Of a DNA stretch of 64,000 nt, positions 40,913 through 64,000 are shown piece after piece; within the stretch, counting starts at the first letter, position 1, and every line of letters begins with the position of its first letter. The stretch lies in the IMG/VR virus record IMGVR_UViG_3300008267_000040, positions 39,629 to 103,628 of that record. One strand, given 5' to 3'. Source of the DNA: a virus. The notes beneath the pieces were generated by a model, which was given only the letters and a program-made list of their open reading frames with translations, was not told where the DNA came from and did no database searches. Position numbers and translations under genes: made by a program.

Positions 40913-40994
40913 TTGAGGGAATTAAGAATAATGAGAAGTTCGTTTCCTGTTTGTGCTTTGGACAGGAGATTGATCTTTTCTTTGCGTTTCATAT

Positions 40995-42093
40995 CAGTTA
41001 CTCATTACCTTATTGAACAGTGAATCATAATCATCTTGATTGATGTGGTCAGGAATACCTACATCATAGAAGAATTGAATCATAGATTGAAGAACTTCTA
41101 ATTCTTCAGGAGTGAATCGGAAAATCATTTCTTCCATTTGATTTCTTGTGCTTTGAGGTACTTGTATTCTCGAATAAAAACTTTAATTGCCCAGATTGCA
41201 GTTGCGGTTTTACCAATCAACAGAATCCAACCTAATGTCATCATTGCTCTTTTTGCTCTACAAGTTTAGCAGGTGAACCACAAGACCGATAGAAATCAAC
41301 CATTGCTTGTGCTTCTCTTACATTCGGGAATGATTGAAACCTCCACTCACAATCGTTGTAAGGCACTTGATAAGTAATCTTCACTTGATTATACATTTCA
41401 ATCATTCCTCAATGAAACAAATTTGACTTTGTTCTGCTGCTAACTCTTGCTCCTCATTCACAGTTGCAAATGCAGGAGAAGTTAAAAGAAAGAAAAGAAG
41501 AATATATTTCATCAATCAACCATTGATGAGTTGTTGGACTTGATTGAAATCCTTACATTGTGCTGCTTTAATTGCATTTGTGATGCTATAAGTCACAAAA
41601 CCACAACGGTGTTCTGCATTACACACAGCATAACCAATTTGTTTGGTCTGAATGTCAAAAACAGTTTTAATCAGCATTGCTTGTTTGTGTTTATGTGGGA
41701 CAGATAGAATTAAGAATCAGTCTGCGTATTGTGCATAAACAATCGCAATCTCGGCATTTTCTTCATCATTGAAAGAAATGCCACACATATCAAGCATCCA
41801 ATCATAAACCATTTCCCAATCTGCTTCCATCTCAGAAATGAAAGAAGGCAGAGATTGAATTGCTTCGGAAAAAGTCATCATTGATTGTTTTGTTTGTTTG
41901 TTGAAAAGAGAATTAAGATTCAGATGCGGGCAAGAGCATCTTTCTTTTGCTTCGGATTGGAAACTTGCTTACACCAAGAAGACTTGCGATAAGAACCAAC
42001 TTGAGAAGGAAGTTTTTGCTTACCCTGAACTTCATTCACAAGAGTAATGAAGTTCATGAAGAATTGCTTTTCCATCCGTTGAGCAGCAGTCAT
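40995..42093 (-). other. Run of ~7 tandem small (<60 aa) early genes below the ORF-track cut-off
   Basis: Examples: 41920-42093 MTAAQRMEKQFF..., ~41717-41878 MTFSEAIQSLPSF..., ~41517-41678 MLIKTVFDIQ..., ~41242-41406 MIEMYNQVKITYQVPYNDCEWRFQSF..., ~40995-41137 MEEMIFRFTPEELE... Confidence 0.6.
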
Positions 42094-42120
42094 CTGAATT
42101 CAAATAAAGAATTGGACTTA

Positions 42121-42212
42121 GGTGGGACAGGCACCCCTGCTCCCTCCACCCTCTTAATATAGCACCTTTTGGGGTCTGTGCTCTTTTAGTGTGCCAGTGC
42201 TACAGGTGGCAC
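42121..42212 (-). promoter_or_regulatory. Early promoter cassette: palindrome + -10 + G/C-rich 5' stem-loop
   Basis: GTGCCAGTGCTACAGGTGGCAC at 42191-212; TGCTATATT -10; leader GGTGG...CCACC hairpin. Confidence 0.8.
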
Positions 42213-42258
42213 AGGGTATCATTGGACTCAGATGAGTTGATGATACCTTAGAGGTCAG

Positions 42259-42486
42259 TCATTTCGCATTACTGAAACCTTGAGCAATTCCAGTTACAAA
42301 TGCAGCACCAATACTCATCCAAAAATCAGGACTTTGCACACACTCAGAAACTGCTTGTGCCCAATCTTGAGGAGTAGAGTTCATCAGCATTTTCTTCTGT
42401 TCAGGAGTCAGATTAGAAACAGTTTCACTCCAGGCAGTTTCAATCTCTTGCTCAAACACTTGACTGAAAGAAGACAAATCACTCAT
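42259..42486 (-). CDS. Hypothetical protein with C-terminal hydrophobic segment
   Basis: 75 aa, with its own sigma70 promoter. Confidence 0.6.
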   Translation of the reverse strand: MSDLSSFSQVFEQEIETAWSETVSNLTPEQKKMLMNSTPQDWAQAVSECVQSPDFWMSIGAAFVTGIAQGFSNAK

Positions 42487-42501
42487 CTCTGAACTCCGTT
42501 C

Positions 42502-42530
42502 ATCATAGCACCAATCCCGATGCTTGTCAA
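42502..42530 (-). promoter_or_regulatory. Consensus sigma70 promoter TTGACA-N17-TATGAT
   Basis: Minus strand TTGACAAGCATCGGGATTGGTGCTATGAT. Confidence 0.8.
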
Positions 42531-42750
42531 GGGGTCTACGGTTCTTCTACCTATCAGCATCCCTGATGGGTATGCTGGGGAAAACAAGACTACATCTCAT
42601 TCACCATAAAATCAATTTGATTCTGATAGTAATTGATGTCTTCAGTAATAGATTCAATCACCTGAACTTGATGTTTAGGTACATTGTCCCTTTCTTTCTG
42701 AAGTTCTTGAATCCGTTGCATCAACAGTTTAACTTGGTCTTCCATTGTTA

Positions 42751-42999
42751 TTACAGTTGCACAAGGACTTTCATCATTGCAGAAACTTCTGCTTTAGTAT
42801 TCCATCCAATCACATCTTCAGTCATATTTCCATTCGGTCGGAAGATTGCAACCTCATAAGTATTGTCAGTCACATTACCATACAATCCACTTCCAGGAAG
42901 TCCAGCAACAACAGAAATACTCCAATCATTTCTGAACTTATACCTTCCCTGAATTGCACCAGGAATAGAATGTGCTTCAAACTCAAGTTGCTCAAACAT
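42751..42999 (-). CDS. Hypothetical phage protein
   Basis: MFEQLEF...YKFRNDWSISVV...GLYG...TYEVAIF...DVIGW widespread phage motif. Start trimmed to MFEQ. Confidence 0.6.
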   Translation of the reverse strand: MFEQLEFEAHSIPGAIQGRYKFRNDWSISVVAGLPGSGLYGNVTDNTYEVAIFRPNGNMTEDVIGWNTKAEVSAMMKVLVQL

Positions 43000-43003
43000 T
43001 GTA

Positions 43004-43336
43004 TCAAACAAATTGTTGGGACAGTGCATACTTAACAATCTCTGTGCGATTGTCTTTGTACTCTAGAAGAAGGTCAATGATGGGTTTAGTGTCCTCTGGA
43101 TTTTGAAGTTCAGGGTCACACTCATCATTGGCAAGTGCAGTAAAAATACTTGCAATCTCAAAGTCTGATTCAAACAGAAGTTCCCGATGCTCGTCAATTT
43201 GTAGATAATCATCTACAGCATTACCAGTCAATTTCAATGGAACATCAGGACCAATCAAACCCAAAGTGGCAAGTCGTTCCAATGCACCAACAACCCACAT
43301 AATTTTGCACTCACCAATCGACAGTTCTGTGTTCAT
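43004..43336 (-). CDS. Hypothetical protein
   Basis: 110-aa ORF in the minus-strand operon. Confidence 0.6.
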   Translation of the reverse strand: MNTELSIGECKIMWVVGALERLATLGLIGPDVPLKLTGNAVDDYLQIDEHRELLFESDFEIASIFTALANDECDPELQNPEDTKPIIDLLLEYKDNRTEIVKYALSQQFV

Positions 43337-43377
43337 TGTATTAAGAATAAAGGGAAGAAAGGGAAAGGGTGTTTAAC

Positions 43378-44052
43378 TCACACCCCACAGAGTTGCTTAG
43401 TCACAGAACCAGATGCTTGACGGTTCAGAGAAACACCAGCACCAACGTTAGAACCAGCATAAGCACCAGCACCGTTAGCACCATTCATCTTCTTGGCACG
43501 TCCGAATCGCATCGTGGAGAGTTTGCTCTTCACTGCATCAGCATCATCATGCACTCGGTTCTCTGCTACTTTCATTTCACGCAGACGTTCTGCAACCTTA
43601 TCAGCAAATGCTTTACGGAAGTTCAACTTGAAACTGCGAGAAACAGTTTTACCAGTAATGTCTGCCATAACCTTCTCTGCTTTATGTGCAACATCTGCCT
43701 CTTTCTCCATCACCTGAACCAGGTAATCATAATAGAGACGCACTTGGATTTGTTGTGCTTCACTACCAATCACCTGCAGAGATTTGGTATCTCCATTCTT
43801 CAGGTATGCCATTGCATCATAGAACTTTGCAATCGCATTAGCAATCGTAGTCAGAGCAACATTGGTTTTCTTGAAAGAGATAAAAGACTCATCAAGAACT
43901 TGAGTTTCAGTTGCCTCACTGATGGTTACACCATACTGCTTGCACAGTTTGTCAATCATCTTAGCAGCAGCATCTGCCTCACCCTCAAAAGAAGTTCCAT
44001 TCTGAAGTTTCAGGATGGATTGAATCTTTGCGATGACTTGAGTGCGGTCCAT
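43378..44052 (-). CDS. DUF2786-family protein
   Basis: MDRTQVIAKIQSILKL...EGEADAAAKMIDKLCKQYGV N-terminus; FKLNFRKAFADKVAERL. Start trimmed to the ATG downstream of the promoter. Confidence 0.7.
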   Translation of the reverse strand: MDRTQVIAKIQSILKLQNGTSFEGEADAAAKMIDKLCKQYGVTISEATETQVLDESFISFKKTNVALTTIANAIAKFYDAMAYLKNGDTKSLQVIGSEAQQIQVRLYYDYLVQVMEKEADVAHKAEKVMADITGKTVSRSFKLNFRKAFADKVAERLREMKVAENRVHDDADAVKSKLSTMRFGRAKKMNGANGAGAYAGSNVGAGVSLNRQASGSVTKQLCGV

Positions 44053-44070
44053 TGTAAAGAATTGAGATTG

Positions 44071-44160
44071 GGACTCGGGTGGGACTGCTCCCTCCACCCT
44101 CTTAATCTACCAGAAAAAAGTGCCAGTGCCCGTTTAGTGTGCCACCAGTACAAGTGGCAC
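44071..44160 (-). promoter_or_regulatory. Early promoter cassette with 5' stem-loop
   Basis: GTGCCACCAGTACAAGTGGCAC at 44139-60; TAGATT -10; GGGTGG...CCACCC hairpin. Shares ctgctccctccaccctcttaat with the 42.1-kb copy. Confidence 0.8.
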
Positions 44161-44327
44161 AGGGTATCACTGGACTCACCGAGTTGTGCTGATAATGTCA
44201 GCAACAGTGTAAAGTGTGTTTGCAGTCAGATTCCTCACACCAGGAGAGAAAATAAATGCAACCGCAAAGATAAGAATTATAGTTCGCATCTTATCTGGTG
44301 CTTTGAAAGTTAATGTCTTAGTTCGCA

Positions 44328-44531
44328 TCAGGCACAGATGGAATAGAGTTTGTTGAACTCATATTCTCCATCTTCACCCTCAACTGCCTGATAAACAAAT
44401 ACAGTTTCACCAGACAGTTCAACACTCCAATCAAGAGCATCTTCTTTGGCATTGTCTACATCTTGATACCACTCGGCATCAATAAGGTCAAAAGAGACAG
44501 GGCAAGAAAGAAACATTGGAGTCAAAAACAA
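44328..44531 (-). CDS. Acidic hypothetical protein
   Basis: 67 aa. AKEDALDWSVELSGETV motif. Confidence 0.6.
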   Translation of the reverse strand: MFLTPMFLSCPVSFDLIDAEWYQDVDNAKEDALDWSVELSGETVFVYQAVEGEDGEYEFNKLYSICA

Positions 44532-44610
44532 ATGAATTAAGTTGATGGTGCAAGTGTGATATGCCTCATCAGGACATAACAGGGACTTGCACTCTATCGT
44601 TTCTATTTAA

Positions 44611-44808
44611 TCAGACTGCAGCAAGGTAAGCAGCAATCTCATCATCATTCTCGGGACAATCAGCAATGCCCAGTTGATCACAAACTTGCTCACGAGTGAG
44701 TTCAGTTTGGTCAGGAACAATCACATCAAGAATGTTCAGAAGTTGAGTTCCAGTAGCACCCTTGCGGAGCATACCGAGCATCACATCTTTGGAGAAAGAA
44801 ACAGTCAT
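44611..44808 (-). CDS. Small early protein (TGxxLLxxLD motif)
   Basis: MTVSFSKDVMLGMLRKGATGTQLLNILDV..., first gene after the promoter at 44907. Confidence 0.65.
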   Translation of the reverse strand: MTVSFSKDVMLGMLRKGATGTQLLNILDVIVPDQTELTREQVCDQLGIADCPENDDEIAAYLAAV

Positions 44809-44835
44809 TTGAGTTGGAGTTAGTTTGACGTTTGT

Positions 44836-44928
44836 GGGGTGGGTTGGTTGCCCTTCCCTCACCACCCCTATACAATACCACATTTTGGGCACTGTGCTCA
44901 TTTACTGTGCCACCAGTACAAGTGGCAC
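44836..44928 (-). promoter_or_regulatory. Early promoter cassette with 5' stem-loop
   Basis: GTGCCACCAGTACAAGTGGCAC at 44907-28; TATTGT -10; GGGGTGG...CCACCCC hairpin. Confidence 0.8.
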
Positions 44929-45378
44929 ATCGCATAATTGGACTCGGTGGGACTGGATTTTGCTAGGAAGCACCAACCCCCCTGAGTCCTATGCGGGACA
45001 CATAATGAGACCGAGAAGAGTTTTTGTTTCTTCTCTGATTCCACCTGCAACCCAGGCACCCCCCACCGCAGGATGCAGTCCCATTGCAGTCTCGTGTGAA
45101 ACTGTTGATTTGGGATTTTTCTGCAATCTGGGGTCAAGGTGCCCTAGGTCATGGACCACAATCTCATCGACGGTCCATCTGAAACTGTTGAGAATCAGGC
45201 AGATTCCAGCAGTTCAGGATAATAGTCTTTAACTTCTGTAATCAATTCTTCCTCAGTATAATCAGTAAGATTTTCTACGAGAGTATCATAAACAAAACGT
45301 TCCATTGTTTTGTAGTCCATGCTATCCAGCATTTGCTGAGCATAAGCATCAATCAGGTCTTCTTTATTCATGATAAGT

Positions 45379-45591
45379 TCAGTGAGATTCAGAAATTACA
45401 AGGTAATCAAGTGAATTGACACACCAACCAGTTTGGTCGGAAATCAAATCAGAAAGTTCATCTTCATTATCAACCTCGAAGACTTCACCAATCACAGATT
45501 TAGCAACTGCGACTTGCTCATCATAAGGAAGTTCCCCAGATGAATCTTCAAAGTCAAACTCAATGTCAGTTAGTTTCAGAAGCATTGTCAA
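45379..45591 (-). CDS. Acidic hypothetical protein
   Basis: 70 aa. TDIEFDFED...DELSDLISDQTGWCV motif. Confidence 0.65.
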   Translation of the reverse strand: MTMLLKLTDIEFDFEDSSGELPYDEQVAVAKSVIGEVFEVDNEDELSDLISDQTGWCVNSLDYLVISESH

Positions 45592-45836
45592 ACCTCAGCA
45601 AAAGGATTAGCAAGTTGCGGAATCGTATTGAAATCTACAACTTCATAAGGAATGGTGTGATTAAGATACTCTTCAATCTCAAGATTCATCTCAATTCGAT
45701 TGAGAAACTTCTTGGATTGACTTTGACCCATAAAAGTCAAAGTTTTTAGAAACCACTCTTCGGATACATTGCCCATCGGAGTTTTGATGGGGTAGAAATC
45801 CACCACCATGTTGCCATCTTTAGATTGGAGTTTCAT
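45588..45836 (-). CDS. Conserved cyanophage hypothetical protein
   Basis: 82 aa. MKLQSKDGNMVVDFYP. Confidence 0.65.
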   Translation of the reverse strand: MKLQSKDGNMVVDFYPIKTPMGNVSEEWFLKTLTFMGQSQSKKFLNRIEMNLEIEEYLNHTIPYEVVDFNTIPQLANPFAEV

Positions 45837-45880
45837 TGAGTGATTAGAATGAAGTGAATTGGAGTTAAGAAACTAACGTG

Positions 45881-46276
45881 TCAGAATTGTGTATCGAACA
45901 CAAACCCATCTTCATAAACGCAATCAAGATTATCGAAACTTGATTCCCAATCAATTTCCAGAAAACCAGGCATTTCCGTAGTATAACAGTCATTCACAAA
46001 GTTCTCTACATATTCACCTTTAGAACTCCAAGCACCACGGTAAGAATCTTGGAAACCAGGAAGTTGGTCGAGACCAAAATACTCAACAAAAGCATCTACT
46101 GCTTCATAATTGTATTCTTCTCCAAGTTGACAATAATCTTCGTAAAACTTTACGAGATTATCTTCACCGTGCTCTCCAATGAACTCATAAATGTCCTCAT
46201 CGGAAAAGTTATTATCAACCAGTTCTTTGATAAACTCAACAGTCGATTCTTTGAGATTCACTTCGATTGCAGGCAT
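45881..46276 (-). CDS. ArdA-like antirestriction (DNA-mimic) protein
   Basis: Very acidic. FQDSYRGAWSSKGEYVENFV...IDWESSFDNL...EDGFVF resembles the ArdA C-terminal domain. Confidence 0.6.
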   Translation of the reverse strand: MPAIEVNLKESTVEFIKELVDNNFSDEDIYEFIGEHGEDNLVKFYEDYCQLGEEYNYEAVDAFVEYFGLDQLPGFQDSYRGAWSSKGEYVENFVNDCYTTEMPGFLEIDWESSFDNLDCVYEDGFVFDTQF

Positions 46277-46304
46277 TGGGTTTCTCAACCTCGATTACTT
46301 TGTA

Positions 46305-46363
46305 ATCATAGCACCCCCAGCAGGGGTTTGGACGGTGTAATGTGCCACCTCTACAAGTGGCAC
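46305..46363 (-). promoter_or_regulatory. Early promoter (palindrome + TGCTATGAT)
   Basis: GTGCCACCTCTACAAGTGGCAC at 46342-63. Confidence 0.8.
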
Positions 46364-46542
46364 AGTCTCACTCAAGACTCACTCATCATACCAGTATTCA
46401 TAATCTTTCACAATGTCATCAGGATGATGATACTTTTCAGTCATACGGTCAATGAAATCTTGGACCTCACCATCATCTAAATCAGCATTGAAATAAATCG
46501 TGAGGTTGACAGATTTATATTGAGTCACAGTCGTTTGTTCCA

Positions 46543-46953
46543 TCAAAGTTGTTCTTGAATCAGTTTAGAAAGTTCATTGAAAGTATAACCTGAATCGTTC
46601 AGGTCCGCAAGTCCTTCGTGATAGAACCAACTATCTTCATCATCTTCTTCAACATCAATTTTTACCACAGGACAATTTTCAGTGAATCCTGCCCAATCCA
46701 TTACAGATTCGGGCACAAACTCACTTTGGTCTTCAAAATACCAATAGTCTTTAGGTTGAAGATTAGTTTCTTCAATGCCCCTAAACTCCCATTCAGTATT
46801 GTGTTCTTGTGCATAAAGGTCACACAGAACACCAAGACAACAATAACCACTCACAGTGCGGAGTTTTTCACTGCCCTGCTCGTATTTACCAGAACGCAGA
46901 GCATCAATCCACTTTTGCTTAACTTCAGGATTCATTGCCGTTGACATCATCAA
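46543..46953 (-). CDS. Hypothetical phage protein
   Basis: KWIDALRSGKYEQG...YCCLGVLCDL...LNDSGYTFNELSKLI widespread phage family. Confidence 0.7.
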   Translation of the reverse strand: MMMSTAMNPEVKQKWIDALRSGKYEQGSEKLRTVSGYCCLGVLCDLYAQEHNTEWEFRGIEETNLQPKDYWYFEDQSEFVPESVMDWAGFTENCPVVKIDVEEDDEDSWFYHEGLADLNDSGYTFNELSKLIQEQL

Positions 46954-48088
46954 ACCAAGTGTCGAGTGAGTTAAAAATTTCAGTTACAATAGTATCAGTA
47001 ATAGAATCAATGTGTGGTTCAGGATTGTGCTTAAACGCACGGTTGTATCCGAACCTAACACCTTCCTCTATTGCCATTTCCAATACATTACGGAATCTAG
47101 GTTTCATAACACCTCCCAATCACATTCCCAAGAGTCATTGACATTTACCCAAAAGAAGTATTTTTGATTCTCTGATGCGAGAAACAACATACCATCACCC
47201 TTGTCTTGCTCTACAATACAAGTTGGGTTGTTATCCATAAAATTGCAAAGTCTATTCTTTGCTTTCTTGGATTTAGGTCTAACAATTACTTTGCGTGGAT
47301 GTGACATTAGTTCACAGTAAGAACAAGTTTAGCAACACGTTTCTCTCCAGCAACTTCCTGCAACTTATCATAAACTTTTTGGAACTGAACTCCCAAGTTC
47401 ATATAATAAGCAGAAAGTTGATAATTCTCTGCAAGATAAAGAGCATTTTCTTTCTCTTCAAGTGCAGAGATAATGTCTAGCAACTCACCAGAAGTAAATG
47501 AAATTGAAGTCATTTTGCAGAGTTCGGAAAACAAATACCATCAACATTAGTGGAAATAGTTGTCTCTAAGACAACATCAAAATCTTCAGTCATTTTGACA
47601 TAATTCCAGAGAGTGTCAGTCTCATCTTCCACATTTTCCTGATAACAGTGAATGAAACCTTCCGAGTCTTGTTTTACATAACAACCATCATAGTCTTCAT
47701 TATCAAAGACATAACCAGATGCAATTAGTGCTTCAATGAAAGTCATTTGATGTCGAAGATGTCGAATAGTTCTCGTTGAGTTTTAGTGAAGAGTGTATCT
47801 TCAGGGGGATACTCATAGAGTTCCAACTCAAACTCTTTGTAGAAATACATAATGTCCCGAAGAGCAGTAAGTTGCTTCTCGGTCAAGATTTCTTCAATAG
47901 TCAGCACAGTGTCAAGCATAGTTTCAGTAATCAGTTCCGTCATTTTCACACTCTTGAATCCAATAAGCATAGCACGGAAAGTTCAGAGGATGGTCTACAT
48001 TCCGTTTGTACCAATCGTATGCAAGACGCAAACGATTTTCAGGCACCTGCAAATAAGGAATGTTTGTCAGATGCGGGGTGTAAGTCAT
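46925..48088 (-). other. Six tandem small hypothetical early genes
   Basis: ORFs 46925-47119, 47104-47307, 47307-47534, 47510-47746, 47743-47970 and ~47924-48088, with overlapping stop/start codons. Confidence 0.6.
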
Positions 48089-48111
48089 TGGACTTCCTCA
48101 ACCATGAATCC

Positions 48112-48170
48112 ATAATACCCCAGAATCCCCCGTACCGCAACCGCATCTGTGCCACCCCTACAAGTGGCAC
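48112..48170 (-). promoter_or_regulatory. Early promoter palindrome
   Basis: GTGCCACCCCTACAAGTGGCAC at 48149-70. Confidence 0.8.
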
Positions 48171-48177
48171 ACCAGCA

Positions 48178-48996
48178 TCAATAAATGGCAATCAGTTCTT
48201 TAACTTTTCCCCTTGATTCGGAACTAGCACCAACACTCCTATTCACATCAACTTCAATTATCTTTCTTGCATCACAGTAAAGTTCTCTTGCTCTCTCTAC
48301 ATCATGATTGCTGATGATTACTTTTGCTCCTTGACTTTTGAGATACTTTGCAAGTTCAACCAATCGTATTTGGTCTGAATCAGTAAATCCCTCGGTATGA
48401 TAATCTGTAAAATTAGATGTTTCACTCAATGGAATGTAAGGTGGGTCAAAATAAACAACAGTTTTCTCATTGATGTTTTGATACAACTTCATTTCAGAGA
48501 AATCAAGAGAGTGCATGTATAATTGATTCTTCTCTCTCATTGTGTTGGTGAAGTTAATCATTTCAGTTCTTGGGAAAGTCACACTCTTATACTTTCCAAA
48601 GGGAACATTATACTTACCTTGTTTGTTGTATCGAGTCAATCCATTGAAACTATGTTTGTTGAGATAGACAAATAATGCAGACTTTTCTCTGCTATCTGCA
48701 GTTTCATTGAACAGTTCTCGATTTCTATAGAAAACTACTTCATCATTTCCATCAATAAAGTAAGATTCACAATAGTCAATGAAGTCATTGCCTTCTGAAA
48801 TCAAATACTGATAAGTCCGAATCAAATCATTGTTTGCGTCATTGATAACAATGACTGGGCAATCCACAATGTTCAGTGATACACTTGCTGCACCACTGAA
48901 CGGTTCAATAAATTGAGTTGGATACCCAATAATAGGAATAAGTTGGGGCAGGAGTCTAAACTTACCACCTGCCCACTTTAGAAAAGGTTTATTCAT
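48178..48996 (-). CDS. dam: Dam-family (D12 class) DNA N6-adenine methyltransferase
   Basis: KPFLKWAGGK, FIEPFSGAASV, LNKHSFNGLTRYNKQGKYNVPFG (GATC-type recognition loop), YFDPPY, ISNH. Confidence 0.9.
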   Translation of the reverse strand: MNKPFLKWAGGKFRLLPQLIPIIGYPTQFIEPFSGAASVSLNIVDCPVIVINDANNDLIRTYQYLISEGNDFIDYCESYFIDGNDEVVFYRNRELFNETADSREKSALFVYLNKHSFNGLTRYNKQGKYNVPFGKYKSVTFPRTEMINFTNTMREKNQLYMHSLDFSEMKLYQNINEKTVVYFDPPYIPLSETSNFTDYHTEGFTDSDQIRLVELAKYLKSQGAKVIISNHDVERARELYCDARKIIEVDVNRSVGASSESRGKVKELIAIY

Positions 48997-48998
48997 TT

Positions 48999-49646: not shown

Positions 49647-49666
49647 GTCTCTTTGTGTATGAATAC

Positions 49667-56041: not shown

Positions 56042-56056
56042 AATGAGTAGGAATAA

Positions 56057-56130
56057 CGTTTCAGGAGGGACTCGAACCCCCGACCAACTGCTTAGAAGGC
56101 AGATGCTCTATCCAACTGAGCTACTGAAAC
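56057..56130 (-). tRNA. tRNA-Arg(TCT)
   Basis: GTTTCAG acceptor stem, TAGCTCAGTTGGATAGAGCA D-arm, CTGC-CTTCTAA-GCAG anticodon arm, GGTTCGAGTCC T-arm. CCA not encoded. Confidence 0.95.
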
Positions 56131-56214
56131 AAATGCCCTCCTGTTTGTGCATTATTAAGAGGCATGGAGGGGGTGGGACTTATTCAAAGTTTGGACCTTT
56201 GATGCCCGTAAGAA

Positions 56215-56466
56215 TTAACCGTTGAGGACTTGAGATTCAGAATCCTCTGGGTCAAGTTTATTTAGCACAAACTGAATCGGGTTCAATTTCTTTTGGATTT
56301 CACTTTCAATTTCACGGAAAGTGCCAACCAGTGCCTCAAGAAGTTCAGAACCAGTCAAATCTTCATAGTCGCAGTCATCAAAGACGTTTTCTTGAAAATA
56401 CTCAACAAGTTGGTCTTGAAGATTTTCAACCATTTGACGAGATGCAGACTTGTTGCGACGTGCCAT
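56215..56466 (-). CDS. Small acidic early protein
   Basis: 83 aa. LTGSELLEALV. Confidence 0.6.
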   Translation of the reverse strand: MARRNKSASRQMVENLQDQLVEYFQENVFDDCDYEDLTGSELLEALVGTFREIESEIQKKLNPIQFVLNKLDPEDSESQVLNG

Positions 56467-56505
56467 AATAAAAGTTAGTTGGTTAAGAAATTAACGAATC
56501 AAAAA

Positions 56506-56730
56506 TCAGACGTAAGTTACAGTACCATCAGCATCAGTGAGGGAAACATAACCATCATCTTCAGAATCCACAGGTTCAGAATAGTTCTCAAGCACAGTGG
56601 AATCATAATTATCCAGTGCTTCAAGAAGTTCAGCACCAGTTTCTGCTTTAGTCAGATTGGCAATCAGTTGAGCACCAGCAGGGTTGGTATCAACGATTTC
56701 AGAAGCAAGTGCAATCAGTTTAGCAGACAT
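56506..56730 (-). CDS. Small acidic early protein
   Basis: 74 aa. ETGAELLEALD. Confidence 0.65.
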   Translation of the reverse strand: MSAKLIALASEIVDTNPAGAQLIANLTKAETGAELLEALDNYDSTVLENYSEPVDSEDDGYVSLTDADGTVTYV

Positions 56731-56962
56731 TTAATAAAAAGTCAAGTGAACAAAAAGTGAGTAACTTTAGGGCAAACTCATTCCCCAAAGTCAAGCACCT
56801 ACAGGATGCTCAACCTCGATTTCATCTTCGTCACCGAGACCAAGTTGAAGATTTACATAATCTTCATAATCAACATGGAGAAACTTTTTAGCAAAGTCCT
56901 CGTAATCATCGTGAAGAATACAAGTGTCAATCATCTTGAAACCTCCTTGACTTGATGAATAC

Positions 56963-57020
56963 ATCATAGCAGATGCAGGGTCGTTTGTAAAGTGTTATGT
57001 GCCAGAAGGATTAGTGGCAC
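56963..57020 (-). promoter_or_regulatory. Early promoter palindrome + TGCTATGAT
   Basis: GTGCCAGAAGGATTAGTGGCAC at 56999-57020; 30-bp gap. Confidence 0.8.
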
Positions 57021-57201
57021 AAGTGGTATCAAACATCATACCATTTCATTTCATTGAAGTGTTCTTGATAGAAGAACTCATCAATTTTGTTATCAACAAT
57101 ACTCAAGAGTTGATTGTAATGTTTCATCCCTTGAGTGCAAACAAGTTCAAGAACATCAAAGTTCTTTTGACAATAACCGTAGGTGTCAAGTTTAAGCATC
57201 A

Positions 57202-57432
57202 TCAATAAGACTCGATTTCGGCAAGTTTCTTTTGTTGACGCAGTTCTTTTACAATCATTTGGAGTTCAGAAATGTCTTCATTCAGAATAGTAAGGTCATC
57301 ATACATCATTTCTGCTTGATAAGCACTCCTGCACTTTTTGTATTGCTTGGAAAGTTTATCGAACTTTTTCTTTGCTTCCTTGAGGTCTTTTTCATACTCG
57401 GGAAGTGTTTTTTCGAATTGTTGATAATTCAT
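57202..57432 (-). CDS. Coiled-coil hypothetical protein
   Basis: 76-aa ORF. Confidence 0.6.
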   Translation of the reverse strand: MNYQQFEKTLPEYEKDLKEAKKKFDKLSKQYKKCRSAYQAEMMYDDLTILNEDISELQMIVKELRQQKKLAEIESY

Positions 57433-57577
57433 TTGAGATAAGGACTAGACCAGTAAGAACGAAAAACGGAATAAACGATAACAACAGTGCTGATAACACC
57501 AACCAAACCGATAAAGGTAATGGCATCACTTGTAACTGCGTAAGTTTCGGGCATAACCTCGACTTGTTTACCTTGTA

Positions 57578-57635
57578 ATCATAGCACCTTTGAGGTGCGG
57601 AATCAAGTGAAAATGGACAGTCCAAAAACCGTCCA
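57578..57635 (-). promoter_or_regulatory. Early promoter (variant palindrome)
   Basis: TGGACAGTCCAAAAACCGTCCA at 57614-35; TGCTATGAT; 30-bp gap. Confidence 0.65.
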
Positions 57636-57656
57636 TCGTTATACATATGTATTCAA

Positions 57657-57947
57657 TCAACCAACCACTTTTTGGTAGGTAATCCGAATATCTTGTGCGA
57701 AATCATCTCGTTTCTGTTGCGTAGTAAGGTTTGCAACTACGAATCGAATAGTTGCATAAACACCCACAACTTGCATCAGGGAATTGAAAACAGGGATGCT
57801 ATCAACAATCTCTACAAGTCCATGAAGAAGAACTTGAGAGACAATAACTACAGCAAAGATGCCAGCAGTCAGTCCAACTTTCTTTAGCACATCATCAGTC
57901 ACATTTTCAGTGTAGAAGTCTTTAACAGTGGAAAAATCAAATTGCAT
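57657..57947 (-). CDS. CAAD-domain / CurT (curvature thylakoid)-like membrane protein
   Basis: Two TM helices joined by VEIVDSIPVFNSLMQVVGVYATIRFV, then amphipathic KRDDFAQDIRITYQKVVG, matching the CAAD layout. Confidence 0.7.
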   Translation of the reverse strand: MQFDFSTVKDFYTENVTDDVLKKVGLTAGIFAVVIVSQVLLHGLVEIVDSIPVFNSLMQVVGVYATIRFVVANLTTQQKRDDFAQDIRITYQKVVG

Positions 57948-58131
57948 TGTTTTGGAAAATAAATTACTTGTCAAAAATTTCTAGGAACTTATCAATCTCT
58001 TCAATCTTTGCAGTATAGTCTGCAACTAGGTCTGCGTGGGGATAATTATAGTATTCTGGTCGTTTCATGCAATCGAGCAAATGTTGCTTAACTGCCTTTC
58101 TGATTTCACATTCAATTTGTATTCCAGACAT

Positions 58132-58437
58132 TTATTCTTCAGTAGGTACTGGTGGAGGAGGAGGTACTGGGGCAATAGGTTTTTGAACAACTACTGGTTT
58201 TTGTTCAATCTGAGTAGGTGCTACCTGATTGTTGGGAACTACAATTTCCGAAGTTTCAGCAGGAGCAGGGATTGATGTTTGTTCAATTTTCTGTTCAAGT
58301 TGCTCAATCTTTTGGTCCAGAACACTTGGAGGAACTTCCGAATTTGATTGTGCTAATTTCCAACCAGCAGTCGCAGCACCAAAAATACTAGCAAGTGCTG
58401 CAACTACAGAAATAGTAGATTGAAACTTACTCACCAT
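58132..58437 (-). CDS. Membrane-anchored Pro-rich protein
   Basis: N-terminal hydrophobic helix, coiled coil, PVPPPPPVP tail. Confidence 0.65.
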   Translation of the reverse strand: MVSKFQSTISVVAALASIFGAATAGWKLAQSNSEVPPSVLDQKIEQLEQKIEQTSIPAPAETSEIVVPNNQVAPTQIEQKPVVVQKPIAPVPPPPPVPTEE

Positions 58438-58694
58438 TCACCTCGTTGAATCAGAATCTTTTTGATTTCGTTAAAAATAAACTTCTTAAGTTTTGCATCA
58501 TCAGTTGCTACATAAGCACTATGTAAACGATGCAGGTACTCCTCTTGAGTGCTGAGTTTGACTACCTTTACATTAGTCACACCAAGGTCACGCATCGGAG
58601 AACCTGCTTTTACTTTAGCACGTCCGAAGTTTCCAGATACAACACCTTGAGTGCGGAGTTTGGGTTTGATTTTGGAGAGATTTGAGTCCGTCAT
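58431..58694 (-). CDS. Conserved cyanophage hypothetical protein
   Basis: SNLSKIKPKLRTQGVVSGNFGRAKVKAGS. Confidence 0.7.
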   Translation of the reverse strand: MTDSNLSKIKPKLRTQGVVSGNFGRAKVKAGSPMRDLGVTNVKVVKLSTQEEYLHRLHSAYVATDDAKLKKFIFNEIKKILIQRGEW

Positions 58695-58716
58695 TACCCT
58701 TTTTGAGGATGCTCTT

Positions 58717-58774
58717 ATTATAGGGCAAAACCGACCCCGTGGGAGGGGTGCTGTGCCAGTTCCATAAGTGTCAG
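58717..58774 (-). promoter_or_regulatory. Early promoter palindrome + TATAAT
   Basis: GTGCCAGTTCCATAAGTGTCAG at 58753-74; 30-bp gap. Confidence 0.75.
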
Positions 58775-61159: not shown

Positions 61160-61217
61160 ATTATAAGGCATCAAGGTCGGTTCTGGTGTGTCCTTGTGAC
61201 GGTTGTTCAGGTGTCAC
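61160..61217 (-). promoter_or_regulatory. Early promoter (variant palindrome) + TATAAT
   Basis: GTGACGGTTGTTCAGGTGTCAC at 61196-217; 30-bp gap. Confidence 0.7.
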
Positions 61218-61517
61218 AAGACTTCTCAACACCTTACGAAGAAACTGAATAGAACCATAAAACTCTTGACCATCTTGCCCACCAATCACAATCCAATCAA
61301 CCTCTTCTAATGCAAGTCGGATTTTCTCATTTGTGGTGAGTTCCTCAAATGATTTCTTTGCAAGTTCCTCTCTTTCTTTCCATTCAATAGCAGCAAGTTG
61401 TTGTAGAGCATCACCATTTTCATCCATCAGTTTTTCTACTGCTTCCCATGCTTTGTTTTCTGCTTCTCTTTGAGCAGCAATCTCAAGCATTTCTTCGTGT
61501 GTAGGATGGTCAGTCAT
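61161..61517 (-). CDS. Hypothetical protein
   Basis: MTDHPTHEEMLEIAA...; stop lies in the downstream -10 box. Confidence 0.6.
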   Translation of the reverse strand: MTDHPTHEEMLEIAAQREAENKAWEAVEKLMDENGDALQQLAAIEWKEREELAKKSFEELTTNEKIRLALEEVDWIVIGGQDGQEFYGSIQFLRKVLRSLVTPEQPSQGHTRTDLDAL

Positions 61518-61776
61518 TTTGTTCTGCCTCGTATGATTGTTGAAATTCAAGTTGTCGTTCAAGTGCTTCAATACGATTTGTAAGGTCAGTCAATACAGAA
61601 ATCAGAGAACGATAATCAATCGTTTCAGTATCATTTCCATACTCCATATCTGTGTAATTGGAATAAAGGAGTTGGTTTGCCATATCGTTGCTATTCATTA
61701 TAAAATACGAATCCAGTTGCTGTCTGTTCATCGTAGTAATAATACTCTTGAAAGACTCCATTTGTAAAGTCTTCAA
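61510..61776 (-). CDS. Hypothetical protein
   Basis: True start probably MNSNDM; ETIDYRSLISVLTDLTNRIEALE. Confidence 0.5.
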   Translation of the reverse strand: MKTLQMESFKSIITTMNRQQLDSYFIMNSNDMANQLLYSNYTDMEYGNDTETIDYRSLISVLTDLTNRIEALERQLEFQQSYEAEQND

Positions 61777-61954
61777 GTGTTTCTAATTCATCACTACCTG
61801 TTGAGTGATAGCAGTCTTCTACAAAGTTTTCAAATGACCCAACAGGACCACAGAACCTATCGGGAAACTTTTCTATGCTTTTATCAGGGAACAGTTCATA
61901 GTATGTGTCTAATACTTCCTGCCCGTATTCTTCTAGGATTTCTTCAAGAGTCAT
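61691..61954 (-). CDS. Second ArdA-like acidic protein
   Basis: EEYGQEVLDTYYELF...FPDRFCGPVGSFENFVEDCY...TGFVF aligns by eye with 45881..46276. Confidence 0.5.
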   Translation of the reverse strand: MTLEEILEEYGQEVLDTYYELFPDKSIEKFPDRFCGPVGSFENFVEDCYHSTGSDELETLEDFTNGVFQEYYYYDEQTATGFVFYNE

Positions 61955-62390
61955 ACATTCCACTCTCTTGCTTCCCAATCCATCAGACACATATTAGTTT
62001 GTTGCTTGTCTGTGTAGTTATCATAAGCATATTGTCGGCACTCTTCTTCTGTGCCCTCAAATAGCATTTCATAAAGTTTATGGTCTCCATCATAGGTAAA
62101 CTTATAAAGTCCCCACTCATCATAGCAGTCAGGAAAGAAAGGCATTAGAGTTCCTCCACCTCCAATTCAACAGCAAGGTTCAGTATAGCATCCTTTACCC
62201 AGTTCTGTCCTTTGATGAAATAATGTTTTTCCATACTCAACTCTCGCTCAGGGTCTGGTTCAATATTGAGACCTTCTACTGCTTCACGAAGAGCAGCAGC
62301 AACGGCAGAATTATCATAATAATATGGACCTGGACCCAACTTACTATAATACTCATTCATTACTTGTTGTGCTCTGGTTTTTCTACTCAT
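61951..62390 (-). other. Two small hypothetical genes
   Basis: ORFs 61951-62145 and 62145-62390. Confidence 0.6.
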
Positions 62391-63238
62391 CGTAGTTTCT
62401 CCCTAATCATTCGGATACACTGATTCCATTTATAACTGTTAGTGTCGTGTTCTGTTGGCAACCACAAACTAATTTCATCTACCAAAGTCTCAATAGAAGT
62501 TTCCATATCCCAATCACTATGAGTTGTGAATACATCTTCCCACCAATCATAAATCAAATCAGTAAGATTTTGTGGTTTATTTTTTTCTCTCCATTCTTTG
62601 ATAAGGTCAAGAGAGTTCTTGAAGTTCTTATCATTATCTTCCTCATCAATCAGTTTTTGAGTTTCTTTCCAGTTTTCTGTTTGTTGTGCTTTTATAAATG
62701 CCTCCCTCATTCCTTTTTCGGTTTCTTCAGGTGTTTGTGGTTTCAACCAATCTAATGGGTCTGTATCTGGATGTTCTTCACACCACTTCACACTCTCCTT
62801 CACAACTCTTTCTACATCCTTATGAAGTCGTTCTCCCCGTTCTTGTGCGGTTTCTTGATACTCTCCTACCTTATAATCTTTCTGTGCGGACTTATATCCA
62901 TTCGCAAAGTGCATCCAAGTTGAACTTTTACGAATAGGGTCAGTATCTGGATAATAGGTATAAAGTCTCTTGAATGCTTCTTCTACTGGTGATTTTGTTT
63001 TTTCCAGTTCCTCCAAGAATGAGAGTTTGGATTGAAGCACTTTGATTTGTGCTTTTACTTCTTCAATTTCAGTCATAGGAGTTTCGTATTGTACGGGTTC
63101 GTCAGTCATTTTAACTTCCTTTACAGCATTATCTACAAGTTGTTGTGCTATTCTAGCACATTCTTCTTGTTCTTTCTTTCCAAGAGGTCCATAAACTTGT
63201 TCCATTAGTTGTTGAAAATCCTTTTCAATACCAAACAT
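62387..63238 (-). CDS. Hypothetical charged/coiled-coil protein
   Basis: 283-aa ORF with KLSFLEELEKTKSPVEEAF motif. Confidence 0.65.
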   Translation of the reverse strand: MFGIEKDFQQLMEQVYGPLGKKEQEECARIAQQLVDNAVKEVKMTDEPVQYETPMTEIEEVKAQIKVLQSKLSFLEELEKTKSPVEEAFKRLYTYYPDTDPIRKSSTWMHFANGYKSAQKDYKVGEYQETAQERGERLHKDVERVVKESVKWCEEHPDTDPLDWLKPQTPEETEKGMREAFIKAQQTENWKETQKLIDEEDNDKNFKNSLDLIKEWREKNKPQNLTDLIYDWWEDVFTTHSDWDMETSIETLVDEISLWLPTEHDTNSYKWNQCIRMIREKLR

Positions 63239-64000
63239 TACAGGTTCTCCAATTCATCACATACATCAAGTATAGCACGAGCATCAAGCAGGAAATCCTC
63301 ACCTTCAAGGCAGTTATAGTATTGGAGTTCAAATACTAACTCACGAAGAACATTAGCAACCGCATCATTATTGAGTTTTTGGATGATAAAATCCCGTCTT
63401 TCATTTGCGAAAGTAGAATAAAATTCATTCATAACTGCTTGTGCTACTTCTTTTTTGTCAGTCATAAGTTCTCCAATTCATCGTGCCAAGGGTAATAATA
63501 ATCTACCTCAATACATTCTAAAAGTGTGCGGGCAAACATAATCTCACCATAATCAGAACCATCTTCAAAAATATCCCAGTTATGGTGTGGATATTCATAA
63601 TCTGGATTTAGATTATAACAAGTTGGTTGTTCTGCGTAATTTTTGAGAACTTTGATGAGATGTGCGAATTTTTCGGTGTCAGTCATAATCAACCTCCTCA
63701 AATCCACCAATACCAATATCTACAAAGGTAGAACCATCAACATCCTCAAAGAGTTGGAAATCAAAATCACCTTCATAGAAGTGATATTTGTGTCCATCAG
63801 TAATCCTTACTTCTTGGTCAAGTGGAAACTCTTTGAGTTTTTCAATAAATTCAGCAACAGTCATAATCTTACTTCTTTGAGTTTGTTAATCAATTCAGGC
63901 AACCAAAATTTATCAATAGAGAGAATGTAATCACTTTCAGCATCATTAGGTTCTCCTAACCACACTTCAACAAAGTGCTCTTTACTAACAATATGAAATG
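63238..64000 (-). other. Four small hypothetical genes (last one 5'-truncated by the window edge)
   Basis: 63238-63465, 63462-63686, 63679-63864 and partial 63861-64000 (...EHFVEVWLGEPNDAESDY...). Confidence 0.6.

What the first reader, a model, noticed from the sequence alone, without database searches (positions are those of the whole stretch)
40976..64000. A ~23-kb GATC-free zone covering the early region, in a phage that encodes its own Dam and a MutH/Sau3AI-like nuclease
Seen: a line-by-line scan found only one GATC (44676) between 40976 and 64000, although GATA, GATT and GATG are abundant there. Composition alone predicts very roughly 3 per kb, i.e. dozens. GATC is common in the structural part (e.g. 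51, 375, 642, 738, 1269) and continues to 40114, 40607, 40673 and 40972, so the boundary is sharp and lies just right of the origin-like block. The dam and nuclease genes sit inside the void. Established: Dam methylates GATC; MutH nicks the unmethylated strand of hemimethylated GATC; cyanobacteria have MutS/MutL but no MutH. Inference, three alternatives: (a) the phage installs its own methyl-directed mismatch repair, and GATC placement splits the genome into a repaired structural zone and an unrepaired, fast-evolving host-interaction zone; (b) GATC nicks in newly replicated late DNA act as sliding-clamp loading or recombination sites, and early genes are spared; (c) this DNA is exposed or expressed first and must escape GATC restriction before Dam and ArdA act. 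Caveat: GGCC, CCGG, GCGC and AGCT look rare across the whole window, so some general site avoidance exists.
Basis: partly seen in the sequence, partly recalled or inferred. Interest (0 to 1): 0.9.

Follow-up and report, generated by a model that had tools for sequence, protein, structure and literature searches.

The report
GATC-free early domain of a cyanophage
The last 23 kb of this fragment of a freshwater T4-like cyanophage has been kept almost free of GATC, and depleted of other short palindromes, by selection; related phages without the phage's own Dam and MutH-like genes show the same pattern, so it looks like restriction-site avoidance concentrated on the early genes.

Summary
The window has 72 GATC: 71 up to 40972 and one (44676) in 40976-64000, where 80-104 are expected. 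Codon shuffling predicts 50 +/- 5 in the void's genes; none is seen.

The contig is a fragment of a T4-like cyanomyovirus. The void is its block of small, presumably early genes, upstream of the baseplate genes. It runs off the contig end. In longer relatives it is about 43 kb and bounded on both sides.

- At least five relative lineages have equally strong voids with neither gene in the fetched DNA.
- About 80 other phage loci carry the nuclease without a void.
- The other 15 four-base palindromes, and six-base palindromes, also drop at the same boundary.
- In 6 of 7 complete T4-like cyanophage genomes, palindrome depletion peaks in this compartment, on different words.

Best reading (confidence 0.48): selection against nuclease target sites is concentrated on the early domain. 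This resembles T5 and T7 leading regions, but here the terminase is T4-type (headful), where such a pattern was not expected. The cause of the asymmetry is unresolved. This scan has reported similar restriction-site-poor early blocks in other uncultured phages.

The parts
40976..64000 (.). GATC-poor domain (1 site). It covers the array of small, presumably early minus-strand genes and runs off the contig end.
   Evidence: The pooled other palindromes drop at the same place.
44676..44679 (.). The only GATC in the domain. It lies inside ORF 44611-44901 (-), at codons GAT-CAA (Asp-Gln).
48178..48996 (-). D12-class N6-adenine DNA methyltransferase (Dam-like), 272 aa.
   Evidence: Pfam PF02086, E = 2.5e-54, full length.
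48999..49688 (-). Single-domain MutH/Sau3AI-fold nuclease candidate, 229 aa, ending 2 nt upstream of dam.
   Evidence: phrog_15364. Homologues are named MutH by JGI. The AlphaFold model has pLDDT 81. Foldseek top hits are MutH 2AOQ/2AOR/2AZO (E = 6e-6, TM 0.52-0.55), then Sau3AI 4PXG. D63, D66 and K70 are invariant and E68 nearly so. Pfam and PDB sequence searches gave no hit.
45881..46288 (-). Protein of a PHROG family labelled anti-restriction protein; homologue of S-PM2p068.
   Evidence: phrog_36653, E = 9.6e-21. No Pfam ArdA hit. S-PM2 annotation.
43378..44097 (-). DUF2786/DUF7168 protein. It is the last widely conserved gene before the near boundary and was used as the anchor for relatives.
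50254..51492 (-). Superfamily-2 helicase (ResIII/DEAD), conserved across the clade.
54745..55221 (-). HNH endonuclease, used as the second anchor for relatives.
55271..56041 (-). Calcineurin-like metallophosphoesterase.
56056..56131 (-). tRNA-Arg (TCT).
42191..58774 (.). Span that holds the copies of the 22-bp palindrome GTGCCA-N10-TGGCAC (8 perfect). In this window the element is found in this domain only, apart from two 2-mismatch hits.
   Evidence: 13 matches against 0.8 expected.
40425..40975 (-). Small genes just outside the void that carry the last GATC sites (40607, 40673, 40972).
39360..40420 (.). Non-coding repeat block next to the boundary. It holds TGTGGAAAA-type (cyanobacterial DnaA-box-like) repeats, AACAGTGCTGTTTAATT repeats, an AT-rich tract and one GATC (40114).
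   Evidence: Read directly.
34097..36384 (-). Start of the baseplate module: gp6 (34097-35983) and a gp25-sized gene (35983-36384).
   Evidence: Pfam gp6 domains. Synteny with S-PM2 gp25/gp6.
38008..38760 (-). Conserved 250-aa protein, annotated glycosyltransferase in relatives. It was used as the anchor for the early/late junction in cultured Kyanoviridae.
1..40975 (.). Structural (late) part of the window, with 71 GATC. Contig-wide outside the void, GATC is at 0.45 of expectation.

Best explanation
The void is one compartment of the genome: the block of small, presumably early (hyperplastic) genes that lies upstream of the baseplate genes in T4-like cyanophages.

In a clade of freshwater phages, selection acting on the DNA itself, through synonymous codon choice, keeps this compartment free of GATC. 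It also keeps it poorer in short palindromes generally. The rest of the genome is only mildly depleted.

The most likely agent is a site-specific DNA endonuclease met early in infection. For palindromes in general that means host Type II restriction enzymes. For GATC it could also include the phage-borne MutH/Sau3AI-like nucleases that circulate in this phage population.

A site in the early compartment costs far more than one elsewhere. The likely reason is that this DNA must stay intact and be transcribed before the countermeasures it encodes (Dam, an anti-restriction-like protein, others unknown) can work.

On this view Dam and the nuclease are cargo of the compartment, not the reason for the void.

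Shown here: the void, its selection, its conservation, its independence from the cassette, and the general palindrome effect. Inferred: the agent, and why early-compartment sites cost more.
For: (1) Selection at the DNA level. The void's genes have 0 GATC against 49.9 +/- 5.0 under codon shuffling.

(2) The selection is ongoing.
- The void holds 1,371 tetramers that are one change away from GATC.
- Alignable DNA of void-bearing relatives is only 71-82% identical to it.
- Those relatives nevertheless have 0-9 sites in 12-43 kb.

(3) It is a bounded compartment in relatives.
- G003: 43.5 kb, 6 sites against 152 expected.
- G002: about 43 kb, 9 against 157.
- G001: 21.8 kb, 3 against 88.
- G006: 0 sites in 13.6 kb, then 23 in the next 6 kb.
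- The near edge lies at or within a few kb after the DUF2786 gene in G000, G001 and G003. In G002 it lies after the next conserved gene.

(4) It is independent of the cassette in both directions.

(5) It is not specific to GATC.
- Palindromic 4-mers and 6-mers are more depleted in the early domain than non-palindromes in all six genomes (p from 5e-8 to 0.04).
- CCGG is at 0-0.11 in the early domain against 0.42-0.63 in the rest in G003, G004 and G006.
- The step lies at the same 40-41 kb boundary.

(6) The selection acts in place and is genome-specific. Early and rest avoidance profiles co-vary across genomes after site means are removed (r = 0.51, permutation p = 0.009).

(7) It is general in the family.
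- In cultured Kyanoviridae the 40 kb upstream of the baseplate anchor shows excess 6-mer palindrome depletion in 4 of 5, on different words.
- An unbiased sliding scan places the strongest depletion on this compartment in 6 of 7 complete genomes.

(8) Precedent. Restriction motifs matter only in the leading region of some Autographiviridae, and a site added to the T5 first-transfer DNA makes T5 sensitive (PMC12455610).
Against: - The terminase is a close homologue of T4 gp17 (E = 4e-103). T4 gp17 packages by the headful, giving permuted ends (textbook knowledge). PMC12455610 states that leading-region avoidance should not matter for headful phages. So a 'first to enter' cause is not expected, and no other cause of the asymmetry has been shown.
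- No termini could be mapped.
- That the compartment is 'early' rests on gene size, the promoter-associated palindrome and synteny with S-PM2, not on expression data. The generic sigma-70 scan was not enriched (63 against 54 +/- 9).
- No host is known, so no GATC-cutting host enzyme has been shown.
- S-SRM01 has GATC-poor islands in a sugar-transferase cluster and in baseplate and fibre genes. GATC-poor DNA is therefore not always early DNA.
- All five nuclease-positive lineages of the clade have strong voids. The cassette may add to the pressure.
Confidence: 0.48

Rival explanations
1. Mosaic ancestry. GATC-free DNA comes from a pool of horizontally exchanged modules that evolved in phage lineages or hosts under genome-wide GATC selection. 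The void marks where such modules sit and has no position-specific function in this genome.
For: - S-PM2 has normal GATC in its early region except a 6.3-kb island (7489-13788, 2 sites). That island contains the segments about 90% identical to window 62150-63698.
- S-SRM01 has GATC-poor islands at 40-65 kb, 190-206 kb (sugar-transferase cluster) and 215-230 kb (baseplate and fibre genes).
- The early domain of G004 is patchy at the kb scale. G003 has four clustered sites inside its void.
- The void has a higher G+C than the rest (0.36-0.42 against 0.27-0.40).
Against: - No genome with a GATC-free late region was found. The lowest 'rest' value is 0.26, in G002.
- The same compartment is void in lineages whose alignable DNA is only 71-82% identical. 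Sites must therefore be removed continuously in that compartment and not elsewhere.
- Early and rest avoidance profiles co-vary within genomes.
- Different cultured phages deplete different palindromes in the same compartment.
Confidence: 0.2
2. Self-avoidance of the MutH-like nuclease. The phage-borne enzyme, or the same enzyme from co-infecting relatives or from a recently lost copy, nicks under-methylated GATC. Nicks are harmful only in DNA being transcribed from a single genome copy, so only the early domain is purged. Voids in lineages without the gene are left over from earlier carriage.
For: - All five nuclease-positive lineages in the clade have ratios of 0.09 or less (Mann-Whitney p = 0.0014).
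- The gene turns over. The closest relative (95-98% protein identity in flanking genes, Dam 95%) carries a nuclease only 55% identical, and in L098/L099 the gene sits at another position.
- The subfamily is almost confined to viral DNA.
- Loci that carry the nuclease have GATC at 0.08-0.86 of expectation (mostly 0.3-0.7). Distant phages without it in the fetched DNA are near 1.0.
Against: - G003 has a fully contained 43.5-kb void with neither nuclease nor D12 methyltransferase in 88 kb.
- 80 of 81 nuclease loci outside this clade have no void.
- A GATC-specific enzyme cannot explain the shared step in the other palindromes, including CCGG and six-base words.
- The test is not corrected for relatedness.
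Confidence: 0.15
3. Reader's (b). MutH-type nicks at hemimethylated GATC in replicated DNA load the sliding clamp or start recombination in the late region, and the early genes are spared.
For: T4 late transcription is activated by a clamp loaded at nicks (textbook knowledge of T4 gp45/gp55/gp33). The late region keeps 132 sites.
Against: - Late-region GATC is itself depleted to 0.45, not retained or enriched.
- The void exists without the nuclease.
- Sparing would make early sites neutral. It would not remove them to 0 of about 50 by codon choice.
- It does not explain the loss of other palindromes.
Confidence: 0.04
4. Reader's (a). The phage runs its own methyl-directed mismatch repair, and GATC placement splits the genome into a repaired zone and an unrepaired, fast-evolving zone.
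For: The MutH fold and an adjacent Dam are real. Cyanobacteria lack mutH (PMC5101192).
Against: - Same as above: voids occur without the cassette, and the cassette occurs without voids.
- Most nuclease loci have no Dam within 10 kb.
- A selective benefit of not being repaired cannot purge sites this completely.
- General palindrome depletion shares the boundary.
Confidence: 0.03
5. RNA-level avoidance. Early messengers avoid GAUC because an RNA-cutting enzyme recognises it.
For: All genes of the domain are on one strand, and GATC reads the same on both strands, so RNA cannot be excluded from this word alone.
Against: - GAT (592) and ATC (352) are common on the messenger strand of the void.
- The words that are specifically more depleted are palindromes as a class, which points to double-stranded DNA recognition.
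Confidence: 0.03

Closest known systems
First-step-transfer (pre-early) DNA of phage T5
   Same: Both are a block of early genes that lacks restriction sites present elsewhere in the genome, and both encode functions that act before the rest of the genome is at risk (as summarised in PMC12455610).
   Different: T5 is a siphovirus with fixed ends and a proven two-step DNA transfer, and its block is about 8% of the genome (my knowledge). Here the phage is a T4-like myovirus with a gp17-type terminase. No fixed end or staged entry is shown. The block is about 43 kb (about 17% of 250 kb) in complete relatives.
Leading-region restriction logic in Autographiviridae (Murciavirus, T7); PMC12455610
   Same: Restriction pressure is concentrated on a sub-genomic, variable early region rich in anti-defence genes. 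Motifs elsewhere are tolerated.
   Different: That case concerns a Type I motif in podoviruses with transcription-driven entry. The paper itself predicts the effect should not apply to headful phages. Here the words are 4-6-bp palindromes, with GATC foremost, in a T4-type phage.
GATC under-representation in enterobacterial phages such as T7 (McClelland 1985; Deschavanne and Radman 1991; my knowledge, not checked here)
   Same: GATC specifically is strongly counter-selected in phage DNA.
   Different: Those cases are genome-wide and were ascribed to host Dam and MutHLS. Here the near-total loss is regional, and cyanobacteria lack mutH (PMC5101192).
MutH / Sau3AI family of GATC endonucleases
   Same: The protein at 48999-49688 has the same fold and a single-domain size like MutH. 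It has an acidic-E-x-K type motif and sits next to a Dam-type methyltransferase.
   Different: There is no detectable sequence match to Pfam or PDB entries. The subfamily is almost exclusively viral. Its activity, specificity and methylation sensitivity are untested. No MutS or MutL partner is known in the phage.
Hyperplastic regions and mobile promoter cassettes of T4-type phages (Arbiol et al. 2010, my knowledge; hyperplastic regions in PMC2984593)
   Same: Both are a block of many small, variable genes between conserved modules, with a repeated promoter-associated palindrome.
   Different: Restriction-site depletion of such regions has not, to my knowledge, been described.

Membership tests
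MutH/Sau3AI-type GATC endonuclease (protein 48999-49688) | MutH/Sau3AI restriction-endonuclease-like fold | tested here: met
   AlphaFold model has pLDDT 81.3 and pTM 0.79. The five best Foldseek PDB hits are MutH (E from 5.8e-6 to 2e-4, TM 0.51-0.56), followed by Sau3AI.
MutH/Sau3AI-type GATC endonuclease (protein 48999-49688) | Catalytic D...(D/E)-x-K motif | tested here: inconclusive
   D63, D66 and K70 are invariant and E68 is at least 90% conserved in 20 homologues (motif D-x-x-D-G-E-L-K). Residue-by-residue equivalence to MutH D70/E77/K79 was not checked on a structural alignment.
MutH/Sau3AI-type GATC endonuclease (protein 48999-49688) | Sequence membership of the curated family | tested here: not met
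   No Pfam family at E <= 0.01. No PDB chain by phmmer or by a 20-sequence profile at E <= 10. Only phrog_15364, of unknown function.
MutH/Sau3AI-type GATC endonuclease (protein 48999-49688) | Cuts or nicks at GATC, sensitive to adenine methylation | not testable with these tools
   Needs biochemistry.
Dam (D12-class N6-adenine DNA methyltransferase; protein 48178-48996) | Full-length match to the D12 methyltransferase family | tested here: met
   PF02086, 185 bits, residues 8-254 on profile positions 1-252 of 253.
Dam (D12-class N6-adenine DNA methyltransferase; protein 48178-48996) | GATC as the methylated word | not testable with these tools
   Needs a methylome of virion DNA.
ArdA anti-restriction protein (45881-46288) | Match to the ArdA family | tested here: not met
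   No Pfam hit. Only a PHROG family labelled anti-restriction protein and homology to S-PM2p068, which carries the same label.
Leading / first-step-transfer restriction-free region (T5, T7 type) | Restriction-type words depleted in an early-gene block relative to the rest of the same genome | tested here: met
Leading / first-step-transfer restriction-free region (T5, T7 type) | The block carries counter-defence genes | tested here: inconclusive
   The block holds Dam and an anti-restriction-labelled PHROG protein. Most of the roughly 50 ORFs have no known function.
Leading / first-step-transfer restriction-free region (T5, T7 type) | The block lies at a fixed genome end that enters the cell first | tested here: inconclusive
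   The terminase is a T4 gp17 homologue (E = 4e-103), which argues against fixed ends. Contig ends of relatives fall at different places. The raw-read runs held almost no reads of this phage, so no termini could be mapped.
Leading / first-step-transfer restriction-free region (T5, T7 type) | Staged or transcription-dependent DNA transfer | not testable with these tools
   Needs infection experiments.
T4-like cyanomyovirus (Kyanoviridae) | T4-type structural and packaging genes in T4-like order, and synteny with S-PM2 | tested here: met
   Scaffold, portal, sheath, TerL and gp6 were identified. The layout from Dam to the anti-restriction gene to gp25/gp6 matches S-PM2. The 250-aa anchor is 78-87% identical to those of cultured Synechococcus phages.

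The most novel reading that the evidence does not exclude
T4-like cyanophages are exposed to restriction in a time- or position-ordered way despite their T4-type terminase. Either a roughly 40-kb early domain reaches the cytoplasm or becomes accessible first (a myovirus counterpart of T5 first-step transfer), or cuts outside it are routinely survived. Either way, host restriction enzymes act as a filter on that one compartment across the whole family. The near-absolute GATC void in a freshwater clade is the sharpest footprint of this.
Probability: 0.2. Interest if true: 0.85.

Novelty: new variant of a known kind. Interest (0 to 1): 0.6.

Why it matters
Restriction-site avoidance is usually scored per genome. 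Here it is concentrated in one compartment of a large group of abundant aquatic phages. A recent experimental paper predicted that no positional effect should exist for this packaging type.

If the asymmetry is real, three things follow:
- Genome-wide site counts mis-predict restriction sensitivity for these phages.
- The early domain is where host range is decided.
- Something unknown about DNA entry, accessibility or repair in T4-like cyanophages must create the asymmetry.

The phage is widespread: 20 freshwater metagenome runs from 13 studies hold it. A cultured freshwater relative, S-SRM01, has GATC-poor islands, so the idea can be tested at the bench.

The work also reclassifies the Dam and MutH-like pair as mobile cargo rather than the organiser of the pattern.

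Tried and rejected
The long metagenome contigs that carry the closest nuclease homologues (P0001, P0005) could not be fetched.
- Sequence searches of the nuclease against Pfam and PDB gave nothing, either as a single sequence or as a profile. Only the fold search placed it.
- A first search of viral contigs with the single nuclease sequence found one locus. The alignment was needed to find more.
- tblastn of the DUF2786 protein against cultured phages found nothing.
- The genome-contig scan found the nuclease subfamily in one CPR MAG only. No host handle was obtained, so host GATC enzymes were not surveyed.
- Sequencing runs: the three raw-read runs offered held almost no reads of this phage (0-4 reads). 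No termini, depth steps or variants could be read. The contig run only showed assembly breaks in the repeat block.
- The generic sigma-70 promoter scan of the void was not enriched.
- TATAAATA occurs only twice in the window, so late promoters could not be used to delimit regions.
- ORF size does not by itself predict GATC depletion. Small-gene stretches with normal GATC exist in G002, G004 and S-SRM01.
- A literature search for GATC or MutH with cyanophage gave nothing relevant.
- I considered that lack of RecBCD in hosts might make cuts survivable. I dropped this because marine picocyanobacteria do have recBCD (PMC5101192).

Full report
**The observation.** A direct count gives 72 GATC in the window: 71 at or before 40972 and one (44676) in 40976-64000. 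Base composition predicts 80 sites in that stretch, and a trinucleotide model predicts 104. The chance of one site or fewer is below 1e-33. GATC is the most under-represented tetramer there (z = -10).

I shuffled synonymous codons among the 46 minus-strand ORFs of the stretch. This predicts 49.9 +/- 5.0 GATC (minimum 35 in 300 shuffles) against 0 observed. Asp before C is GAC 34 times and GAT never. Ile after G is never ATC. The absence is therefore written into codon choice. The lone site lies in ORF 44611-44901, at a GAT-CAA codon pair.

**What the DNA is.** The genome held is a single contig of 103,628 bp, and the window is its last 64 kb.
- Nearly all genes are on the minus strand.
- The contig begins inside a truncated open frame next to scaffold, portal, sheath and large-terminase genes. 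It ends inside a small open frame. It is therefore a fragment.
- The terminase matches T4 gp17 at E = 4e-103, and gp6 lies at 34097-35983.
- The order is Dam, many small ORFs, an anti-restriction-labelled gene, then gp25/gp6. This matches Synechococcus phage S-PM2.
- The phage is from fresh water: 20 metagenome runs from 13 studies hold at least 93% of the sampled words of a 10-kb stretch.

Across the whole contig, 132 of 133 GATC lie in 1-80600. The void is thus the upstream block of small, presumably early genes. It reaches the contig end, so 23 kb is a lower bound. A 22-bp palindrome, GTGCCA-N10-TGGCAC, occurs 8 times perfectly and only in this block.

**The two enzymes.**
- 48178-48996 is a full-length D12 methyltransferase.
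- 48999-49688 has no Pfam or PDB sequence match. It has hundreds of environmental homologues, some of which JGI names MutH. They share a conserved D-x-x-D-G-E-L-K motif.
- A confident model (pLDDT 81) has MutH as its best structural matches, then Sau3AI.
- The subfamily is almost confined to viral DNA: 140 IMG/VR loci, but only one of 185,579 species genomes.
- The 'ArdA' label is only a PHROG annotation.

**Does the cassette cause the void?** Of the 81 viral loci fetched around the nuclease gene, 80 have GATC at 0.08-0.86 of expectation with no void round the gene. Dam is adjacent in only a handful. The exception, G001, is a syntenic relative. It has 3 GATC in 21.8 kb and 17 in the next 8.9 kb, and it has no Dam in its 30.7 kb.

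I then anchored on two other genes of the block, DUF2786 and HNH, which gave 114 more loci. After de-replication, 48 lineages have at least 6 kb of early DNA.
- The five lineages with the nuclease all have ratios of 0.09 or less.
- Five lineages without it in the fetched DNA are just as empty (0.02-0.08).
- Eighteen more lie at 0.12-0.33.
- Distant lineages sit near 1.0.

Whole records sharpen this.
- G003 (88 kb) has a void of 43.5 kb bounded on both sides (6 sites, 152 expected). It has neither the nuclease nor any D12 methyltransferase.
- G006 has no site in 13.6 kb and then 23 in the next 6 kb.
- G002 (complete, 250.6 kb, with the cassette) has 9 sites against 157 expected in about 43 kb, and 0.26 of expectation elsewhere.
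- G004 (complete, 247 kb, no nuclease) has 0.19 in the same compartment and 0.70 elsewhere.

The cassette is therefore neither necessary nor sufficient. An association with the strongest voids remains (p = 0.0014, not corrected for relatedness).

**Not only GATC.** In the window, the other 15 palindromic tetramers pooled stand at 0.76-0.93 of expectation up to 40 kb and at 0.42-0.61 after it. The step is at the same boundary.
- In all six related genomes, palindromic 4-mers and 6-mers are more depleted in the early compartment than non-palindromic words (p from 5e-8 to 0.04).
- CCGG is at 0-0.11 in the early compartment against 0.42-0.63 elsewhere in three of them.
- GAT and ATC are common on the messenger strand, so a sub-word or RNA-level explanation is unlikely.
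- With site means removed, early and rest avoidance profiles co-vary across genomes (r = 0.51, permutation p = 0.009). This fits selection acting on each genome in place, more strongly in one compartment.

**Generality.** Four cultured Kyanoviridae have no GATC void, and none of the five examined has the nuclease.
- The 40 kb upstream of their baseplate anchor still shows excess depletion of 6-bp palindromes in 4 of 5, on different words in different phages.
- A sliding 40-kb scan with no prior places the strongest palindrome depletion on this compartment in 6 of 7 complete genomes. The binomial p is about 2e-4 to 3e-3.
- The GATC void is therefore the extreme, lineage-specific case of a family-wide pattern.

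**Selection or ancestry?** The void holds 1,371 tetramers one change away from GATC. Alignable DNA of void-bearing relatives is only 71-82% identical, yet they keep 0-9 sites. Removal must therefore be continuous.

Ancestry does contribute to the patchiness.
- S-PM2 has a 6.3-kb GATC-poor island containing the segments about 90% identical to window 62150-63698.
- The freshwater isolate S-SRM01 has GATC-poor islands in early-gene homologues, and also in a sugar-transferase cluster and in baseplate and fibre genes.
- I found no genome whose late region lacks GATC, which a pure donor-pool model needs.

**Mechanism.** The contig avoids CCGG, CGCG and the RGCY words everywhere. That is what classical avoidance of restriction on entry looks like. 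A regional void means a site in the early block costs far more than one elsewhere.

The known systems with this logic are T5 first-step-transfer DNA and the leading region of T7-like phages. Experiments show that only motifs in the first-injected region matter in those phages (PMC12455610). That paper also says the effect should not apply to headful phages. Here the terminase is T4-type, and I could map no termini.

I therefore commit to this reading: selection by site-specific nucleases is concentrated on the early domain because it must stay intact and be transcribed before its own countermeasures work. My confidence is about one half. The cause of the asymmetry is marked as inferred. It could be ordered entry or accessibility, survivable cuts elsewhere, or nicks that harm only transcribed single-copy DNA.

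Its favoured links to phage-run mismatch repair or to nick-loaded clamps are not supported. Its third alternative points the right way. Cyanobacteria do lack mutH (PMC5101192), but that fact does not bear on the void.

**Earlier notes.** Notes on this genome supplied the cassette, promoter and repeat-block leads, and I re-read those features myself. This scan has also reported restriction-site-poor early blocks in several other uncultured phages. Those reports are leads, not support.

**Limits.** No host is known. There are no expression, methylation or end data. Several relatives are fragments. The statistics on lineages are not phylogenetically corrected. One tool (look-up of encoding contigs) was closed.

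Noticed in passing
whole contig (window 1-64000 and L082, L083): CCGG and CGCG are absent. The four RGCY words (AGCT, AGCC, GGCT, GGCC) are nearly absent genome-wide: 0-1 each in the void and 11-35 each in the other 80 kb, against 17-141 expected. This suggests exposure to CviJI-like and MspI/HpaII-like enzymes.
   Followed up: partly
L084 (S-PM2, NC_006820) 7489-13788: A 6.3-kb island with only 2 GATC sits in an otherwise GATC-normal early region. It contains the segments about 90% identical to window 62150-63698, so it is probably a recent exchange between a marine isolate and this freshwater lineage.
   Followed up: partly
S-SRM01 (NC_070963) 190-206 kb and 215-230 kb (L298): There are GATC-poor islands outside the early genes. 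One is a nucleotide-sugar and glycosyltransferase cluster (1 site in 10 kb). The other is a block of baseplate, fibre and RCC1-like genes.
   Followed up: partly
window 39360-40420: This non-coding block holds several TGTGGAAAA / TTTTCCACA repeats (the cyanobacterial DnaA-box word), four copies of AACAGTGCTGTTTAATT, and an AT-rich tract. Assemblies of other samples break here or vary here; one contig skips 83 bp at 40113-40197.
   Followed up: partly
L116/L146 (IMGVR_UViG_3300021093_000047) versus window 48178-49688: In the closest relative the flanking proteins are 92-98% identical and Dam is 95% identical, but the MutH-like protein is only 55% identical. One gene of the pair has been replaced by a different allele.
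   Followed up: no
L098/L099: The MutH-like gene sits downstream of the DUF2786 gene, in the boundary zone, instead of between the helicase and the anti-restriction gene. The gene moves within the compartment.
   Followed up: no
G003 (L216) 29223-30262: Four of the six GATC sites inside a 43.5-kb void are clustered within about 1 kb. This looks like a recently inserted module from a GATC-containing source.
   Followed up: no
contig start, L082 1-972: A 324-aa open frame runs off the contig start, downstream of the scaffold gene on the minus strand. It is probably the truncated major capsid gene (not tested). No replication genes are on the contig, so the record is about half a genome.
   Followed up: partly
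late region, contig 1-80603: GATC avoidance depends on reading frame even outside the void. G+ATC (Ile) occurs 5 times in 171 chances. GAT+C occurs 73 times in 137 chances, and xGA+TCx occurs 52 times.
   Followed up: no
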